A stretch of DNA of 64,000 bases from Methanobacteriota archaeon (GCA_004195715.1 PSPX01000003.1:5232-69231); one strand, 5' to 3'. Numbered from the stretch's first letter, positions 20,625 through 57,158 are shown. Numbers and translations are program-made. The notes: a model not told the origin generated them from the sequence alone.

Positions 20625-21200
20625 TTAGAATCCCAGCGTTTCGAATATCATGTCGGACCTCTCCTCAAGTTCCTCGAGAGAACCCTCGTTGAGGATAATA
20701 GCGTGAGCCTGCTCCATCAGCATCTCAAGCCCCCATCCCCATTCGCGCTCCTCGCGTTCGGTGAACTCCGTTCCGCCGCCGTCCTCTCCTCGCCCGCGCC
20801 CCTCGAGCCATTCCGATCTCGATTGAGGCGTTGCTGACATCGCGACCACCGTGACATCGTCGACATGCTCCCTCAGTCGATCCATCTCTTCGGGCTGGCG
20901 CATTCCATCGATGAGAACATCTGACACCTCCAAGGTACTCATCAAACTCGGAATCAGCCTGTCAACAACAATCTCCTCACCATGCTCCTCGCGCATCGAG
21001 AGAGCAGTCTTACCTACGTTTGCGGGAGTCTCTGGCAAACCTTTCGAGGCCATCTCAGAGCGCACGATGTCACCCAGTGATAGGACACTCATCCCCCTCT
21101 CGGACGCTTTTCGTGCCACCACACCCTTGCCCGAGCCGGGCGGACCGCACAGCACCAACACACGCCCCGTCATGGCCTGCGGTGAAAGTTCCTCGAACAT
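20625..21200 (-). CDS. P-loop nucleoside/nucleotide kinase-like protein (adenylate/cytidylate-kinase-related)
   Basis: 191 aa. LVLCGPPGSGKG Walker A with an AK-like context. Convergent with the 2PGK-like gene and abutting its stop. Confidence 0.45.
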   Translation of the reverse strand: MFEELSPQAMTGRVLVLCGPPGSGKGVVARKASERGMSVLSLGDIVRSEMASKGLPETPANVGKTALSMREEHGEEIVVDRLIPSLMSTLEVSDVLIDGMRQPEEMDRLREHVDDVTVVAMSATPQSRSEWLEGRGRGEDGGGTEFTEREEREWGWGLEMLMEQAHAIILNEGSLEELEERSDMIFETLGF

Positions 21201-29090: not shown

Positions 29091-29165
29091 ACGAGTGTAG
29101 TGTAGTGGTTATCACCGGGCGTTGCCAACGCCTGAACCCGGGTTCAAATCCCGGCACTCGTACCA
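29091..29165 (+). tRNA. tRNA-Gly (anticodon GCC), CCA encoded
   Basis: Hand-folded. Acceptor ACGAGTG/CACTCGT, anticodon stem GGGCG/CGCCT with loop TTGCCAA, T-arm CCGGG-TTCAAAT-CCCGG, discriminator A, CCA. Confidence 0.75.
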
Positions 29166-29245
29166 TTCGATTGTTCCAGATGCCCTCGAATCGCTCGTAG
29201 AGGTGACTTCGACAGATTCAATATGTAATGCCATGACTCCACTTC

Positions 29246-29590
29246 ATGAAAGAATTCAGAATCAACATGAGTGATGAACCCGGTTCTCTAGCTGAGCTCT
29301 GCGAGACTATCGCTTCGAAAGACGTCAACATACTGACTATCGTTGCAATATCGGGAGAACCCGCATCTGCTGCAATCTTGACCGACAACGCAGATGCCAC
29401 CTCTGCGGCGCTTGATGGAATGGGTGCTAAATACTCGGTAGCAGATCTCAAGTCAGCCAAGTTGGATCACAAGCCGGGCTCACTGGCCGCCTTCACAAGA
29501 GGGATGAGCAACTCCGAAGTCAACCTCACATCGCTATACGTCATGTCAATGGATGGCGACAGCGCCACCATCGGTTACACTACTGACTGA
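29246..29590 (+). CDS. ACT-domain protein (small amino-acid-binding regulatory domain)
   Basis: 114 aa. RINMSDEPGSLAELCETIASKDVNILTIVAIS fits the ACT beta-alpha-beta-beta-alpha-beta pattern. It sits between two tRNA genes. Confidence 0.5.
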   Translation: MKEFRINMSDEPGSLAELCETIASKDVNILTIVAISGEPASAAILTDNADATSAALDGMGAKYSVADLKSAKLDHKPGSLAAFTRGMSNSEVNLTSLYVMSMDGDSATIGYTTD

Positions 29591-29595
29591 TGCAA

Positions 29596-29670
29596 GCGGA
29601 CATGGTCTAGTGGTTATGACAGTAGGTTCCCAACCTGCTAACCCGGGTTCAACTCCCGGTGTCCGCACCA
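29596..29670 (+). tRNA. tRNA-Gly (anticodon CCC), CCA encoded
   Basis: Acceptor GCGGACA/TGTCCGC, anticodon stem GTAGG/CCTGC with loop TTCCCAA, T-arm CCGGG-TTCAACT-CCCGG, discriminator A, CCA. Confidence 0.75.
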
Positions 29671-29728
29671 ATCGCACGCGTGAGGGTTTAGCAACGCTAA
29701 TGCGCGAATCTGAATTCGAACGGCCACA

Positions 29729-29806
29729 GGGCCCGTGGGTTAGCTTGGCCTATACTTGGCGCTTCGGGGGCGTTAGACCTCAGTTCAAATCTGGGCGGGC
29801 CCACCA
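29729..29806 (+). tRNA. tRNA-Pro (anticodon CGG), CCA encoded
   Basis: Acceptor GGGCCCG/CGGGCCC, anticodon stem GGCGC/GCGTT with loop TTCGGGG, T-arm CTCAG-TTCAAAT-CTGGG, discriminator A, CCA. The D-arm pairing is irregular by hand-folding and needs tRNAscan confirmation. Confidence 0.6.
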
Positions 29807-40472: not shown

Positions 40473-43094
40473 GTGGTGCCAAATGAATCCCCTGAGCCAC
40501 TGAAACCCGATTATTCAGGCAGTGCTTGGAAAATCAGGAGCAAGCATCGCAGGAGACTCCTTGACCGGCTAACTGAGGGCGGTGACACCGTCAGTGTGCT
40601 GGCTAGGGATGTTGAACTCAGGGTCCCGCACGCCTCAGCAGAGATAAAACGATTGAGAAACGATGGACTGGTCTCCAGCGACCTATCTGCTGGGAGTCGT
40701 GGAGCTAGGATTCACCTGACCGAATTGGGCTGGGAGTCAGTGAGTGCTGACGAGTGGTCCAGGGCATCCGAGGCCTCTCCCTTGCCCGAAGACTCTAGCA
40801 TGTGCTGCCTGCTGTTTCGTGATGGTCCAAACCTCCTGCTTGGAGTTATGGAGCCTTGCGACTCCCCATTACTGTTGATTCCGGATCGCCCCCCTGTTTC
40901 GATTCTGGGCAATTCTGGTTCCACCGGAAGCGATGGGGTCCTTTGGAGCTGGGCGGTACTCAGGGAGAGGGAACCCCGGTGGTTCGACCTCTCGTCAATG
41001 GAGCCCAAGCCAAGCCCTCCGCCTCCTTCCGATCCGGAGAACATAGCGGCTTACTCGGGACAGCGCACTGTCGTCGGGATAATCCGCGCTAGGCTGCTTG
41101 ACGCCGAGCGACCGATTGCCATAGCGCCGGGTCAGTGGTTCGGGTCTCCGGACTTCCGGCCCGCGCCCCCGTTGCCTGAGGGCGGCTATCATCGGGGCCC
41201 GTGGGTACTTGGTGCGTGCCACGAGATGTCACCGGAGATTAGGCCGAAGGAACCAGTGGTCGCTGTGATGGAAGACAGGCTCCCCCGCTCCATGCTGCTT
41301 AGGACAGCGAGGAATAATTCTCTGGTCATCGCGGATCTCGGAGGGCTGGACACCGAGGGTGACCCGTACCCATTGGCAGCCCTTGACCCATGGATCGAAA
41401 GGGCCCACCCGCGTCTGAGCGATGCTGAGAGGAAACGGAGACTAGGTGCCCTGAAGGACAGGGTCAGCAAGGCGAGAAAGGTCAGGACCGAGGATTCCAC
41501 CTGGCGTCGATTCAGACAAGATTGGGGTGAGTCGGTGTTCACCGAGGAAGGAGATTCAATCAGGATCCTTGACCTAAGGGGGCTGGGTGACACGGCGGCT
41601 GAGGCATTAGTGAGATGGGCAATCAATGACGATGGCAAACGCCCGCTGACTATCGAAGTCGGGGTTGATATGCCCGAGGAACTAATCTCTTCAATCGCTT
41701 CTCACTCCAATCTCCGAATGGCTCTCCTCGAGGGTGAAGCATCTGCGTTCTCCAGCTTCGACATACTGGATGCTGATCCCCTGAGGCCGCTGCCTTGGCT
41801 GCGCCTGACAACTAGGGGGGGGAGGGTACTGCCAATGCGACTGGTCGATCCAGCCCAGGTCCCTGAGTTTTCAGAATCCGATGAACCGGTCGTACTAGAG
41901 TGGGAATCCCTAGGCATCGACATCGAGTTGGTCGGGAATATCGAAGAGGGCCACCTCTCAGTCATCAATTCAGCTGTAGTTCAATATCCCACAGGCAATG
42001 AGGAGTGGGCCAACCAAATGGAAGCCAGATACCCAATTGCGGCTTGGATAGCATCTCCCGCTAGGACTAGATGGCCACGCTGGCAGAGACTCAGGAACCG
42101 ACTCAGTCCGGAGTGGCTAGCACTCATGAATCTGGACGACCTCCCGCTGGAGAGGCTGTCAGAGGTCGCCGACGAGGCACCCGACTCGGTTTTGGAAGAA
42201 TTCTCCAAGAAGATTACCAACAGATTCAGACAGGATTCCGATGCAGCACTCAGAACGAGACCAGCGACGGATCCGAAGCAAGCAACCCGCGGAGCCGCTT
42301 GGGTAGCAGCTCAACTGCTGTCAAACGCCCCCTGGCTACCTGAGCACATGCACTCGGACTTGCTCCATTGGGCACTGGAGGCATGGCTCTCCGAGCCCCC
42401 AAGCGATTCGATGCCTGCACTGCAGGGAGTCGCGTGGCTTTATTCTCCGGGCCGCAGCGATGAATCCAGTTTCAGACCAATACTTGAGGGGATTCGGAGC
42501 AAGGGAAAGGAATCTCCTTCTGGCCATGACCTGCACACTTGGGCCAGCCTAGCAGACATGATGCTGGACGATTCGAAGATGAATCTCGATGAATTGGAGA
42601 GAATACTGGAACTACCTCCCGGCTGGTGGGCACCGATTTCCGTCAAGATACTCTCTGGGCTATTGGAGGAGGAGGATTCTACAGATTGGGTCATCGCCAA
42701 TACCGTCCCCTGGTGTGCGGCAGTGCTGCGTCCGATAGGCGATTGCTGTCAGGCACCCGGACTCCGTTCCTACGAGCATCCCGGATGCGACTCAGAACTG
42801 TACTCCCGCCTTTCCCGGAGGTTGAGGGGCAGGCGTGAGCGTCAGGGCATGCCCGATACCGCTGAACCACTGCTCGATTTACTCGACGCCCTAGACGCGG
42901 TGAATGATGGCAAATCTCCTTCGCCGGGAAAGACGCATCCCCTATCGGGGTGGCTCGCCCAGCCGTTGGAGAAATGGCCGGAGTTCTCTTCGTCCGAGAT
43001 CATGGACGGCGATGTTCACATCACTGAGAGGCTGCTCTTGAGGAGCTCAGGGTATCATCCAAAAATCGTCCCTTCAATCTCGATTTCGGGTTGA
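40473..43094 (+). CDS. Large orphan protein (873 aa) with N-terminal winged-helix domain
   Basis: GTG start preceded by GAGGTGG. N-terminus KIRSKHRRRLLDRLTEGGDTVSVLARDVELRVPHASAEIKRLRNDGLV is the same wHTH family as the two small upstream proteins. The remainder has no recognizable catalytic motif, with a Cys cluster near the C-terminus (WCAAVLRPIGDCCQAPG...HPGC). Confidence 0.5.
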   Translation: MVPNESPEPLKPDYSGSAWKIRSKHRRRLLDRLTEGGDTVSVLARDVELRVPHASAEIKRLRNDGLVSSDLSAGSRGARIHLTELGWESVSADEWSRASEASPLPEDSSMCCLLFRDGPNLLLGVMEPCDSPLLLIPDRPPVSILGNSGSTGSDGVLWSWAVLREREPRWFDLSSMEPKPSPPPPSDPENIAAYSGQRTVVGIIRARLLDAERPIAIAPGQWFGSPDFRPAPPLPEGGYHRGPWVLGACHEMSPEIRPKEPVVAVMEDRLPRSMLLRTARNNSLVIADLGGLDTEGDPYPLAALDPWIERAHPRLSDAERKRRLGALKDRVSKARKVRTEDSTWRRFRQDWGESVFTEEGDSIRILDLRGLGDTAAEALVRWAINDDGKRPLTIEVGVDMPEELISSIASHSNLRMALLEGEASAFSSFDILDADPLRPLPWLRLTTRGGRVLPMRLVDPAQVPEFSESDEPVVLEWESLGIDIELVGNIEEGHLSVINSAVVQYPTGNEEWANQMEARYPIAAWIASPARTRWPRWQRLRNRLSPEWLALMNLDDLPLERLSEVADEAPDSVLEEFSKKITNRFRQDSDAALRTRPATDPKQATRGAAWVAAQLLSNAPWLPEHMHSDLLHWALEAWLSEPPSDSMPALQGVAWLYSPGRSDESSFRPILEGIRSKGKESPSGHDLHTWASLADMMLDDSKMNLDELERILELPPGWWAPISVKILSGLLEEEDSTDWVIANTVPWCAAVLRPIGDCCQAPGLRSYEHPGCDSELYSRLSRRLRGRRERQGMPDTAEPLLDLLDALDAVNDGKSPSPGKTHPLSGWLAQPLEKWPEFSSSEIMDGDVHITERLLLRSSGYHPKIVPSISISG

Positions 43095-43454
43095 AAGCCA
43101 GTAAATATCTGACCGAGGGGTTCTTGACCACCCCCCATGGCCGATGTTTGCCCGAGCTGCAACACCGTGGCGACGAAGCCCCCCGCTGGAGGAATAGGAT
43201 GAATCACGGTACCAAGTTCGGGTCACCACTTGCCGAAGACCAGTGTGACCAGCTGCAACGGAATGATCACTGGAGCAAATCAAGTGGCCGGATTGTGTTA
43301 GGTCCCCCGATGACCGGAAGGAATGACTCAAGGGACTACCCCACAGTTCGACAGACGTCCCGGGGTGGGTCAGGCGCCCGAGCTTTGCTGTGAAGGACCG
43401 CCGTTACGCCCCGGGGCACACACACTCCATTTGTCCAAAAAAGGCGGGAATCTG

Positions 43455-44471
43455 ATGCACGACATCGGCCTAATCGGCGGCACCTTTGACCGCTTCCATG
43501 CCGGACACCTATCGCTGATGGAGGCCGGTCTGTCCAAATGCTCCTTCATTGAGGCCTGGCTCACCGCAGATAGCCTTGCTCACTCGAAGGATCCGCGGGT
43601 GAATTCATGGGGTACAAGGGCTCAGGAGATGAAGGAGGCGTTGGGGGACGATGCTGGCAGAGTTAGATTCCATACCCTCGAAGATAACCACGGACCCGCA
43701 CCGGCGCATGCTGATGCCACAGCGATTATTTGCACCGGCGAGACCCGCGCCGAGTGTGAGGAAATTAACCGACTAAGAGAAGGCAGCGACCTGCCACCGC
43801 TACACATCATCAGCGTAGGACACGTACTCGCATGGGACGACAAGCCGATATCCAGCTCTAGAATCAGAGCAGGAGAGATCGACCGTAACGGAAAACCATG
43901 GATTCCAAACTCGATTAGGGCGGGCAGAGTGGTCTTGACATCCCAGATCGAAGCAGAACTCAAGGAGCCCTTCGGTCAGTTGGTTTCTGGCCCGGAAGAC
44001 AATCCCTCCGTTGCAATGACAGAAGTCCTCACCCATGTCGAAGGGGAGTCGGGGCCGGTCATCGCTGTCGGCGATGTGACAGTCCGCACTCTGCAGGACC
44101 TCAATCGGCCAGCCGACATCGCCCTCATCGATGGACTCACTAGGAGGGAGCCTTGGGAGGGCGCAGACGGAATCGACTCGTCTCTGTATGACAAGACCCT
44201 GCAGTGTTCCAGCCCTGCTGGTTCCCTGACGCCTTCGTTGCTGGAGGCCTGTGAGCGGGCAATGAAATCCTGGAAGGAAGGGCGGTTAACCCATCTAATT
44301 CAGGTCGAAGGTGAGGAAGATCTAGCCCCACTTATTTTGCATCCACTGGCTCCCTTGGGTGCTGTTGTGCTATATGGCCAACCAGGAAAAGGAGTCGTAG
44401 TCAGATGGTGTGGAGAGGACGCCAAACAGCGTTGTCGCAGACTGCTCAGCGAATTCGTTCCCGCCGAATGA
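43455..44471 (+). CDS. Bifunctional CoA biosynthesis protein: archaeal-type phosphopantetheine adenylyltransferase fused to a DUF359-type GTP-dependent dephospho-CoA kinase
   Basis: Conserved start MHDIGLIGGTFDRFHAGH (nucleotidyltransferase H-x-G-H) at ATG 43455. C-terminal half has VIAVGDVTV...ALIDGLTRRE...QVEGEEDLAPL...VVLYGQP blocks of DUF359 / archaeal DPCK. Confidence 0.65.
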   Translation: MHDIGLIGGTFDRFHAGHLSLMEAGLSKCSFIEAWLTADSLAHSKDPRVNSWGTRAQEMKEALGDDAGRVRFHTLEDNHGPAPAHADATAIICTGETRAECEEINRLREGSDLPPLHIISVGHVLAWDDKPISSSRIRAGEIDRNGKPWIPNSIRAGRVVLTSQIEAELKEPFGQLVSGPEDNPSVAMTEVLTHVEGESGPVIAVGDVTVRTLQDLNRPADIALIDGLTRREPWEGADGIDSSLYDKTLQCSSPAGSLTPSLLEACERAMKSWKEGRLTHLIQVEGEEDLAPLILHPLAPLGAVVLYGQPGKGVVVRWCGEDAKQRCRRLLSEFVPAE

Positions 44472-57081: not shown

Positions 57082-57158
57082 TGGTGCGCTCTGGGGAATT
57101 CGAATCCCCGTGGACGGGTTGGAAACCCGTAATCATAACCAGACTAGATCAAGAGCGC
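57082..57158 (-). tRNA. tRNA-Gly (anticodon TCC), CCA encoded
   Basis: Reverse complement reads GCGCTCT...acceptor/AGAGCGC, anticodon stem ACGGG/CCCGT with loop TTTCCAA, T-arm GGGGA-TTCGAAT-TCCCC, discriminator A, CCA. Confidence 0.75.

What the first reader, a model, noticed from the sequence alone, without database searches (positions are those of the whole stretch)
43455..44471. Single polypeptide fusing archaeal PPAT with DUF359-type GTP-dependent dephospho-CoA kinase
The N-terminal ~150 aa is the archaeal cytidylyltransferase-like PPAT (GGTFDRFHAGH). The C-terminal ~190 aa carries the DUF359 blocks (VGDVTV, GEEDLAPL, YGQP) that characterize the archaeal DPCK. A fusion would channel the last two steps of CoA biosynthesis in one protein. 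That is analogous in logic to eukaryotic CoA synthase, but built from archaeal, non-homologous parts.
Basis: partly seen in the sequence, partly recalled or inferred. Interest (0 to 1): 0.55.

Follow-up and report, generated by a model that had tools for sequence, protein, structure and literature searches.

The report
Known archaeal PPAT–DPCK fusion enzyme
This gene from a Marine Group II archaeon really does join the last two enzymes of coenzyme A synthesis in one protein, but the same fusion in the same group of archaea was published in 2019 as the clue that identified the archaeal kinase, so it is an ordinary member of a known family.

Summary
Window 43455-44471 (+) is one uninterrupted 338-aa ORF. 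Its N-terminal half is an archaeal/eukaryotic-type phosphopantetheine adenylyltransferase (PPAT). Its C-terminal half is a DUF359/arCOG04076 dephospho-CoA kinase (DPCK). Both pass Pfam cut-offs and both match solved structures (3DO8, 8JVC). All catalytic residues are invariant across 115 homologues.

It is not an artefact. The same gene, in the same five-gene neighbourhood, occurs in 11 independent Marine Group II (Poseidoniales/Thalassarchaeum) genomes at 62-95% identity.

It is not new either. Shimosaka, Makarova, Koonin and Atomi (mBio 2019, PMC6650551) reported PPAT fused to arCOG04076 in uncultured group II/III euryarchaeota. They used that fusion to predict, and then prove, that TK1697 is the archaeal GTP-dependent DPCK. 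The comparison with eukaryotic CoA synthase is only half right, because the PPAT half is homologous to the eukaryotic one. No fused enzyme has been assayed as far as I could find, so channelling and GTP preference are inferences.

Two side observations:
- The same fusion, and an NMNAT-PPAT-DPCK triple fusion, are widespread in CPR bacteria.
- The 310 nt just upstream of the gene hold a highly conserved four-hairpin H/ACA-like small RNA that Rfam does not call.

The parts
43455..44471 (+). Complete coding sequence of the bifunctional PPAT-DPCK protein (338 aa plus stop)
   Evidence: The ORF is intact. It carries two Pfam domains. Full-length orthologues at 54-95% identity occur in Marine Group II genomes and metagenomes.
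43470..43898 (+). PPAT domain (residues 6-148), nucleotidyltransferase Rossmann-like fold
   Evidence: NF001985 scores 105.2 bits against a cut-off of 104, and PF01467 scores 31.3 bits. phmmer matches A. fulgidus PPAT 3DO8 at E=3.6e-10. Foldseek gives TM 0.76-0.83 to 3DO8, followed by bacterial PPATs.
43497..43508 (+). HxGH nucleotide-binding motif (H15-A-G-H18)
   Evidence: It aligns to HEGH of 3DO8. H15, G17 and H18 are invariant in 115 homologues and also across the archaeal plus CPR alignment A2.
43848..43868 (+). ISSSRIR motif (residues 132-138), the second signature of this nucleotidyltransferase superfamily
   Evidence: It aligns to ISSTRIK of 3DO8. S133, S134 and R138 are 100% conserved and R136 is 97% conserved.
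43893..43934 (+). Short ordered junction (residues 147-160) between the two domains
   Evidence: The AlphaFold2 model gives pLDDT 92-97 through this stretch and a pTM of 0.89 for the whole chain, with no disordered linker. The junction length is fixed at 22 residues between the two flanking motifs in 103 of 104 scorable MGII homologues.
43935..44453 (+). DPCK domain (residues 161-333), DUF359/arCOG04076, thiamine-pyrophosphokinase-like fold
   Evidence: PF04019 scores 86.2 bits. NF041125 covers positions 5-168 of its 176. phmmer matches T. kodakarensis DPCK 8JVC at E=3.2e-22. Foldseek gives TM 0.88-0.94 to 8JVG, 8JVC and 8JVF.
44073..44075 (+). Asp207, equivalent to catalytic Asp48 of TK1697
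   Evidence: The alignment to 8JVC pairs VGDV with VGDV. The D48A mutant is severely growth-defective (PMC6650551). Asp207 is invariant in 115 of 115 homologues.
44130..44132 (+). Asp226, equivalent to catalytic Asp67 of TK1697
   Evidence: The alignment pairs IALID with IALYD. The D67A mutant is severely growth-defective. Asp226 is invariant.
44319..44321 (+). Asp289 (in GEEDLA), equivalent to Asp125 of TK1697
   Evidence: The alignment pairs GEEDLA with GEEDLA. The D125A mutant grows more slowly. Asp289 is invariant.

Best explanation
The gene encodes a bifunctional enzyme that finishes coenzyme A synthesis in a Marine Group IIb archaeon (Candidatus Thalassarchaeum). The N-terminal domain (residues ~1-148) transfers AMP from ATP to 4'-phosphopantetheine and makes dephospho-CoA. 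The C-terminal domain (residues ~161-338) phosphorylates the 3'-hydroxyl of dephospho-CoA to give CoA, probably with GTP as donor, as in the characterised T. kodakarensis homologue.

Shown here: both domains are present, full length and in one frame; every known catalytic or signature residue is conserved under strong purifying selection; and the two domains are predicted to pack into one rigid body with a short ordered junction.

Inferred: both activities themselves, the GTP preference, and any kinetic advantage of the fusion (proximity or channelling of dephospho-CoA, or fixed 1:1 stoichiometry).

This is the fusion family already reported by Shimosaka et al. 2019.
For: Domain calls come from Pfam and NCBIfam. 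Sequence matches to solved DPCK 8JVC (E=3.2e-22) and PPAT 3DO8 (E=3.6e-10) pair all motif residues. H15, H18, S133, S134, R138, D207, D226 and D289 are invariant in 115 homologues and in a joint archaeal and bacterial alignment.

The AlphaFold2 model has pLDDT 95.3 and pTM 0.89. Foldseek's top hits are 8JVG/8JVC/8JVF for the C-terminal half and 3DO8 for the N-terminal half.

The fusion is present in 11 species-level MGII genomes with conserved synteny and in all 120 hits listed of 706 metagenomic hits. No second PPAT-like or DUF359-like sequence and no CoaE match was found in the 64-kb window.

In the literature, TK1697 has GTP-dependent DPCK activity, its knockout is a CoA auxotroph and the D48A/D67A/D125A mutants are defective. 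The PPAT-arCOG04076 fusion in group II/III euryarchaeota is explicitly described there.
Against: No fused protein has been assayed, and I found no such report in the searchable library. The PPAT subfamily score is only just above its cut-off (105.2 against 104), and the Pfam hit is to the generic cytidylyltransferase-like family, so substrate specificity of the N-terminal half rests on best-hit logic and on the fusion partner. The DPCK equivalog cut-off (300 bits) is not met, as expected for a model built on Thermococcales only. GTP-specificity residues could not be checked because the structure paper for 8JVC is not in the library. Only 64 kb of the genome was visible, so a second standalone PPAT or DPCK elsewhere cannot be excluded.
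Confidence: 0.9

Rival explanations
1. The join is an artefact: two adjacent genes (PPAT and DPCK) were merged by a sequencing frameshift or a chimeric assembly.
For: One of the 11 orthologous loci (L011) shows a frameshift inside the gene. A few database entries are short fragments that carry only one domain.
Against: The same single-frame 337-340 aa protein is found in 10 of 11 independent MAGs from different studies, and in hundreds of metagenomic clusters down to 54% identity. L011 is also frameshifted in the neighbouring MBL gene, which points to errors in that MAG. The junction has a fixed length and is confidently structured.
Confidence: 0.01
2. The N-terminal domain is not PPAT but another nucleotidyltransferase of the same superfamily, such as an NMN adenylyltransferase, an FAD synthetase-like enzyme or a cytidylyltransferase. 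The protein would then couple a different pair of reactions.
For: The Pfam hit is to the generic CTP_transf_like family at 31 bits. The PPAT subfamily model is passed by only 1 bit. Weak hits to nicotinate-nucleotide adenylyltransferase models also appear.
Against: The best NCBIfam, PDB-sequence and Foldseek hits are all PPATs, while the NMNAT hits have E-values between 1e-3 and 1e-2. In the CPR triple fusions a separate archaeal-type NMNAT domain sits next to this PPAT-like domain, so the two are distinct paralogues. Fusion to the enzyme of the next pathway step is the expected pattern.
Confidence: 0.05
3. One of the two domains is catalytically dead and serves only as a regulatory or scaffolding module, for example a CoA or dephospho-CoA sensor.
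For: There is no direct evidence. Bifunctional cofactor enzymes with a degenerate domain do exist in general.
Against: Every signature residue of both active sites is 100% conserved over 115 sequences that have otherwise diverged to about 54% identity, and also over bacterial homologues at about 30% identity. No alternative PPAT or DPCK was found in the window.
Confidence: 0.03

Closest known systems
PPAT-arCOG04076 fusion proteins of uncultured group II/III euryarchaeota (e.g. AIF21550.1), described in Shimosaka et al., mBio 2019 (PMC6650551)
   Same: The domain pair, the domain order and the lineage (Marine Group II) are all the same. The window protein belongs to this family and has 94-95%-identical relatives in public data.
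   Different: Nothing substantive differs. I could not retrieve AIF21550.1 itself for a direct alignment.
TK1697, the GTP-dependent dephospho-CoA kinase of Thermococcus kodakarensis (PDB 8JVC/8JVF/8JVG)
   Same: It is homologous to residues 161-333 (E=3.2e-22, about 33% identity, TM 0.88-0.94). The catalytic residues Asp48, Asp67 and Asp125 are conserved.
   Different: TK1697 is a standalone 177-aa monomer. Here the domain is covalently joined to PPAT. GTP preference is untested for the fused form.
Archaeal 'eukaryotic-like' PPAT (Pyrococcus abyssi PAB0944; T. kodakarensis TK2128; A. fulgidus structure 3DO8)
   Same: It is homologous to residues 6-148, and the HxGH and ISSxRI motifs are conserved.
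   Different: These enzymes are standalone proteins of about 150-160 aa.
Eukaryotic CoA synthase (COASY), a bifunctional PPAT-DPCK
   Same: It catalyses the same two consecutive reactions in one chain, with the same domain order (PPAT then DPCK). The PPAT domains are homologous (established knowledge; Armengaud 2003 title).
   Different: The kinase domain of COASY is a P-loop CoaE-type DPCK that has been assayed with ATP. Here the kinase is a thiamine-pyrophosphokinase-like DUF359 domain. The two fusions therefore arose independently.
NCBIfam NF002250 (PRK01170), 'bifunctional pantetheine-phosphate adenylyltransferase/NTP phosphatase', 322 aa
   Same: It is another archaeal-type PPAT fused to a C-terminal domain, and it is of similar length.
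   Different: Only the PPAT part (model positions 2-149 of 322) matches the window protein, at 85 bits against a cut-off of 489. Its C-terminal domain is a different family.

Membership tests
Archaeal DPCK (DUF359 / PF04019 / arCOG04076) | Match to the family profile above the curated threshold, over the whole domain | tested here: met
   PF04019 scores 86.2 bits against a cut-off of 25, covering profile positions 4-125 of 126. NF041125 positions 5-168 of 176 are matched.
Archaeal DPCK (DUF359 / PF04019 / arCOG04076) | Three conserved acidic residues shown by mutagenesis to matter (TK1697 Asp48, Asp67, Asp125) | tested here: met
   D207, D226 and D289 align to them and are invariant in 115 homologues. 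The mutant data come from PMC6650551.
Archaeal DPCK (DUF359 / PF04019 / arCOG04076) | Thiamine-pyrophosphokinase-like fold, as in the solved TK1697 structure | tested here: met
   In the AF2 model (pLDDT 95.3) the C-terminal half superposes on 8JVG, 8JVC and 8JVF with target TM 0.88-0.94.
Archaeal DPCK (DUF359 / PF04019 / arCOG04076) | Dephospho-CoA kinase activity with preference for GTP | not testable with these tools
   This needs an enzyme assay. The structure paper that defines GTP contacts is not in the library.
Archaeal/eukaryotic-type PPAT (NF001985; PF01467 superfamily) | Match to the PPAT subfamily model above its cut-off | tested here: met
   NF001985 scores 105.2 bits against a cut-off of 104, which is a marginal pass, over residues 6-148. 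The Thermococcales equivalog NF041124 is not met (48.7 against 290).
Archaeal/eukaryotic-type PPAT (NF001985; PF01467 superfamily) | (H/T)xGH and ISxxxxR nucleotidyltransferase signature motifs | tested here: met
   HAGH is at residues 15-18 and ISSSRIR at 132-138. Both align with 3DO8 and are invariant.
Archaeal/eukaryotic-type PPAT (NF001985; PF01467 superfamily) | Adenylyl transfer to 4'-phosphopantetheine | not testable with these tools
   This needs an enzyme assay.
PPAT-DPCK fusion family of Marine Group II/III archaea (Shimosaka 2019) | Both domains in one reading frame, PPAT N-terminal, in a Marine Group II/III genome | tested here: met
   There is a single ORF. Orthologous loci are titled Thalassarchaeum, Marine Group II or Poseidoniales, and synteny is conserved.
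Eukaryotic CoA synthase (COASY) | P-loop CoaE-type DPCK domain | tested here: not met
   The protein gives no CoaE or P-loop kinase match in Pfam or NCBIfam. Its kinase half is DUF359. It works like CoA synthase but is not a member.

The most novel reading that the evidence does not exclude
The evidence does not exclude two linked ideas. First, the fused protein may be a rigid two-domain machine whose fixed geometry hands dephospho-CoA directly from the PPAT site to the kinase site. Second, this 'CoA-finishing module' may have arisen once and moved between Marine Group II archaea and CPR/Patescibacteria bacteria. In those bacteria it is also found extended by an archaeal-type NMN adenylyltransferase into a three-enzyme NAD-plus-CoA finishing protein. 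That would let organisms with reduced genomes make CoA from scavenged 4'-phosphopantetheine. The bacterial distribution and the triple fusion were not mentioned in the 2019 paper, and I found no report of them.
Probability: 0.3. Interest if true: 0.4.

Novelty: already known. Interest (0 to 1): 0.15.

Why it matters
For this window it matters little, because the gene is a routine member of a published fusion family. It serves as a worked example of why that family was historically useful: the Rosetta-stone fusion revealed the long-missing archaeal DPCK.

Two practical points remain. First, public annotation mostly calls these proteins just 'pantetheine-phosphate adenylyltransferase' or 'hypothetical'. 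The kinase function is therefore systematically under-annotated in Marine Group II genomes, and metabolic reconstructions may wrongly score the last step of CoA synthesis as missing. Second, no fused enzyme appears to have been characterised, so the questions of channelling and nucleotide preference in a mesophilic fused form are open but incremental.

Tried and rejected
- **Frameshift or assembly artefact.** Rejected by 11 independent genomes and by conserved synteny.
- **Longer 382-aa ORF starting at 43323.** Rejected, because the extension lies in a conserved non-coding RNA and its frame is broken in L001, L002, L006 and L008.
- **Second PPAT, DPCK or CoaE in the window.** tblastn with each half found only the gene itself. 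The P-loop kinase at 20628-21200 (-) gives weak adenylate-kinase-like hits and no CoaE hit. The other ORFs scanned are housekeeping genes with no CoA-pathway members.
- **Literature on a characterised fused enzyme, on the 8JVC structure, or on the bacterial occurrence.** Six searches found nothing beyond the 2019 paper. The DUF359 search was swamped by DUF3594 and similar terms.
- **AIF21550.1 among the cluster members.** Not found among the 10 clusters read.
- **Distance between the two active sites.** Model coordinates are not exposed to the sandbox, so this could not be measured.
- **RNase P or SRP RNA identity for the upstream conserved block.** I considered this from motifs. It is not supported, because Rfam gives no such hit and the best weak hit is an H/ACA sRNA.
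- **Direction or number of transfers between archaea and CPR bacteria.** Not resolved. Equal modal junction length is suggestive only, and I did not have a broad set of standalone archaeal sequences for a tree.

Full report
**1. The observation**

Window 43455-44471 on the + strand is a single open reading frame of 338 codons.

Pfam finds CTP_transf_like over residues 6-139 (31.3 bits, cut-off 21) and DUF359 over residues 212-334 (86.2 bits, cut-off 25). NCBIfam places residues 6-148 in the pantetheine-phosphate adenylyltransferase subfamily NF001985 (105.2 bits, cut-off 104). It aligns residues 161-333 with almost the whole Thermococcales GTP-dependent dephospho-CoA kinase model NF041125 (83.8 bits, below that narrow model's 300-bit equivalog cut-off).

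**2. Is the join real?**

A search of 5.8 billion proteins gave 706 hits. The 120 best are almost all 337-381 aa and carry both Pfam domains at 54-94% identity. Their source names include Candidatus Thalassarchaeaceae, Poseidoniia, Marine Group II and Euryarchaeota.

A scan of species-representative genomes found the gene in 11 MAGs from independent studies at 62-95% identity, including Candidatus Thalassarchaeum and Marine Group II MED-G34. In all of them the neighbourhood is the same: an 873-aa protein with an ArsR-like N-terminus, the fusion, a 211-aa membrane protein, Orc1/Cdc6 and an MBL-fold hydrolase. The fusion is in one frame in 10 of the 11. The exception, L011, is also frameshifted in the MBL gene, which points to errors in that MAG. 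The window therefore comes from a Marine Group IIb archaeon, and the fusion is a genuine, conserved gene.

**3. Start codon**

The mechanical ORF list also offers an ATG at 43323. The 132 nt between it and 43455 are highly conserved as nucleotides. In frame, however, they contain stops or shifts in L001, L002, L006 and L008. 70 of 120 homologues place the GGTF motif at residue 8-9, as here. The start is 43455.

**4. Active sites**

phmmer against PDB sequences matches residues 161-333 to T. kodakarensis DPCK (8JVC, E=3.2e-22) and residues 7-146 to A. fulgidus PPAT (3DO8, E=3.6e-10).

The alignment pairs Asp207, Asp226 and Asp289 with TK1697 Asp48, Asp67 and Asp125. These are the residues whose Ala substitution impaired complementation of the CoA-auxotrophic knockout (PMC6650551). 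It also pairs HAGH(15-18) and ISSSRI(132-137) with HEGH and ISSTRI of the PPAT.

In an alignment of the query with 114 full-length homologues, H15, G17, H18, S133, S134, R138, D207, D226, E288, D289 and YGQP(307-310) are 100% conserved, while mean column conservation is only 0.67-0.75. The same residues are invariant when bacterial homologues at about 30% identity are added. Both active sites are under strong purifying selection.

**5. Structure**

AlphaFold2 with a 70-sequence alignment gives mean pLDDT 95.3 and pTM 0.89. No segment falls below pLDDT 70, and the junction (residues 147-165) scores about 92-97.

Foldseek against the PDB ranks the T. kodakarensis DPCK structures first (8JVG/8JVC/8JVF, target TM 0.88-0.94), then archaeal PPAT 3DO8 (TM 0.76-0.83), then bacterial PPATs. 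No solved chain spans both halves.

The high pTM suggests a fixed inter-domain packing rather than a flexible tether. That is compatible with channelling but does not demonstrate it.

**6. Mechanism**

The N-terminal domain should adenylylate 4'-phosphopantetheine with ATP. The C-terminal domain should phosphorylate the resulting dephospho-CoA at the 3'-OH. By analogy with TK1697, which strongly prefers GTP and is a monomer, GTP is the likely donor.

The fusion guarantees 1:1 stoichiometry and proximity. These steps are inferred from homology. No fused enzyme has been assayed in any paper I could find.

**7. Comparison with what is known**

[quoted passage not shown] This fusion led them to test TK1697, which proved to be the missing archaeal DPCK. 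The window protein is a member of that family from the same lineage.

Members have been in public databases since at least a 2008 marine fosmid entry (ABZ07503.1). One JGI annotation already reads 'UPF0218 family/phosphopantetheine adenylyltransferase'.

The analogy to eukaryotic CoA synthase holds for logic and domain order. The PPAT halves are homologous, since archaeal PPAT was described as 'eukaryotic-like', and only the kinase halves are analogous. Another catalogued archaeal PPAT fusion (NF002250, PPAT/NTP phosphatase) shares only the PPAT part.

**8. Context in the window**

No other CoA-pathway gene is nearby. The scanned ORFs include the following:
- Central and nucleotide metabolism: GlpX-type FBPase, class I aldolase, biotin carboxylase, CTP synthase, NAD kinase and NadA.
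- Protein folding: thermosome and Hsp70.
- Information processing: Orc1/Cdc6, PCNA, TBP, Nop56/58 and fibrillarin.

A small P-loop kinase at 20628-21200 (-) is weakly adenylate-kinase-like and gives no CoaE hit. tblastn with either half of the fusion finds no paralogue in the window.

**9. Side observation A: the fusion outside archaea**

An exhaustive phmmer search of 1.84 billion 50%-identity representatives found 2611 hits. More than 100 distinct clusters of about 325-350 aa align end to end with the query at 29-37% identity. All 10 that I checked carry both Pfam domains.

A profile of 45 of them retrieves proteins that NCBI names Candidatus Roizmanbacteria, Woesebacteria and Microgenomates group bacterium. 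These are CPR/Patescibacteria bacteria. One sits on a 299-kb Microgenomates contig.

Many are about 490-535 aa and have an added N-terminal archaeal-type NMN adenylyltransferase domain (NF002243 at 129.6 bits against a cut-off of 127 in P0385; just below the cut-off, at 118-122 bits, in P0294 and P0300). That makes an NMNAT-PPAT-DPCK triple fusion.

The spacing between the end of PPAT and the start of DPCK is 22 residues in 103 of 104 scorable MGII proteins, and it is also the modal value in the CPR set (46 of 96). This is compatible with a single fusion event followed by inter-domain transfer, but it is not proof. The 2019 paper reports that PSI-BLAST retrieved only archaeal members. I found no paper describing the bacterial occurrence, though the searchable library is limited.

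**10. Side observation B: a conserved small RNA just upstream**

The intergenic block at about 43112-43420 is nearly invariant across nine MGII genomes whose flanking proteins are only 50-63% identical. Rfam at gathering thresholds calls only four tRNAs in the window. A relaxed search gives a sub-threshold match to the archaeal multi-hairpin H/ACA sRNA HgcG/Pab40 (22 bits, E=2.9e-4, gathering 77). It also gives a much weaker match (16.8 bits, E=3.8) of the last hairpin plus its ACA box (43357-43420...CCCCGGGGCACA) to Pab160.

RNAalifold predicts a small 5' stem followed by four consecutive hairpins of 60-75 nt, 83 pairs in all, 8 of them with compensatory double changes. The upper stems carry (A/G)UGA elements of the kind that form K-turns or K-loops. 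The most likely reading is a four-hairpin H/ACA-type pseudouridylation guide RNA that current Rfam models do not reach. It ends about 35 nt before the fusion gene's ATG.

**11. Verdict**

The finding is accurate but already known. Interest is low for the gene itself. The CPR distribution with its triple fusion, and the unannotated H/ACA-like sRNA, are the only parts that might merit follow-up.

Noticed in passing
window 43112-43420 (+), between the 873-aa ORF and the PPAT-DPCK start: A block of about 310 nt is nearly invariant in nine MGII genomes although the flanking proteins are only 50-63% identical, and its reading frame is not conserved. It gives a sub-threshold Rfam match to the archaeal H/ACA sRNA HgcG/Pab40 (22 bits, E=2.9e-4), and its last hairpin ends in CCCCGGGGCACA. 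RNAalifold predicts a small 5' stem and four consecutive hairpins, with 8 compensatory pairs. It is probably an unannotated multi-hairpin H/ACA guide RNA.
   Followed up: partly
outside the window: proteins P0138-P0269 and P0294-P0403; locus L012:6001-6999: The same PPAT-DUF359 fusion is widespread in CPR/Patescibacteria bacteria (Roizmanbacteria, Woesebacteria, Microgenomates) at about 30% identity, including on a 299-kb bacterial contig. The junction length matches that of the archaeal proteins. I found no published report of this in the searchable library.
   Followed up: partly
outside the window: P0385, P0294, P0300, P0219, P0235 and about 30 others of 490-535 aa: These are triple fusions in CPR bacteria: archaeal-type NMN adenylyltransferase plus PPAT plus DUF359 DPCK. 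One chain would finish both NAD and CoA synthesis.
   Followed up: partly
window 40473-43094 (+): An 873-aa ORF has no Pfam family and only a weak ArsR/SmtB-like HTH at residues 23-70. It is conserved and syntenic with the fusion gene in all MGII loci that extend far enough upstream (50-94% identity). Its function is unknown.
   Followed up: no
window 20628-21200 (-): A 191-aa P-loop kinase gives only weak adenylate-kinase-like hits plus a hit to the uncharacterised NF006226, and no CoaE match. It may belong to the archaeal P-loop kinases that were once mis-annotated as DPCK.
   Followed up: partly
outside the window: P0134, P0167, P0204 (175-192 aa): These standalone-looking DUF359 proteins are 40-48% identical to the kinase half of the window protein and begin exactly at the domain boundary. 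They could be real unfused relatives or split gene calls. They would be useful for dating the fusion.
   Followed up: no
public annotation of homologues: NCBI names most members 'pantetheine-phosphate adenylyltransferase', 'DUF359 domain-containing protein' or 'hypothetical protein'. The kinase function is rarely annotated, so automated pathway reconstructions for Marine Group II may score the DPCK step as missing.
   Followed up: no
window 29091-29803 (+) and 57085-57158 (-): There are four tRNA genes. Three are clustered at 29.1-29.8 kb.
   Followed up: no
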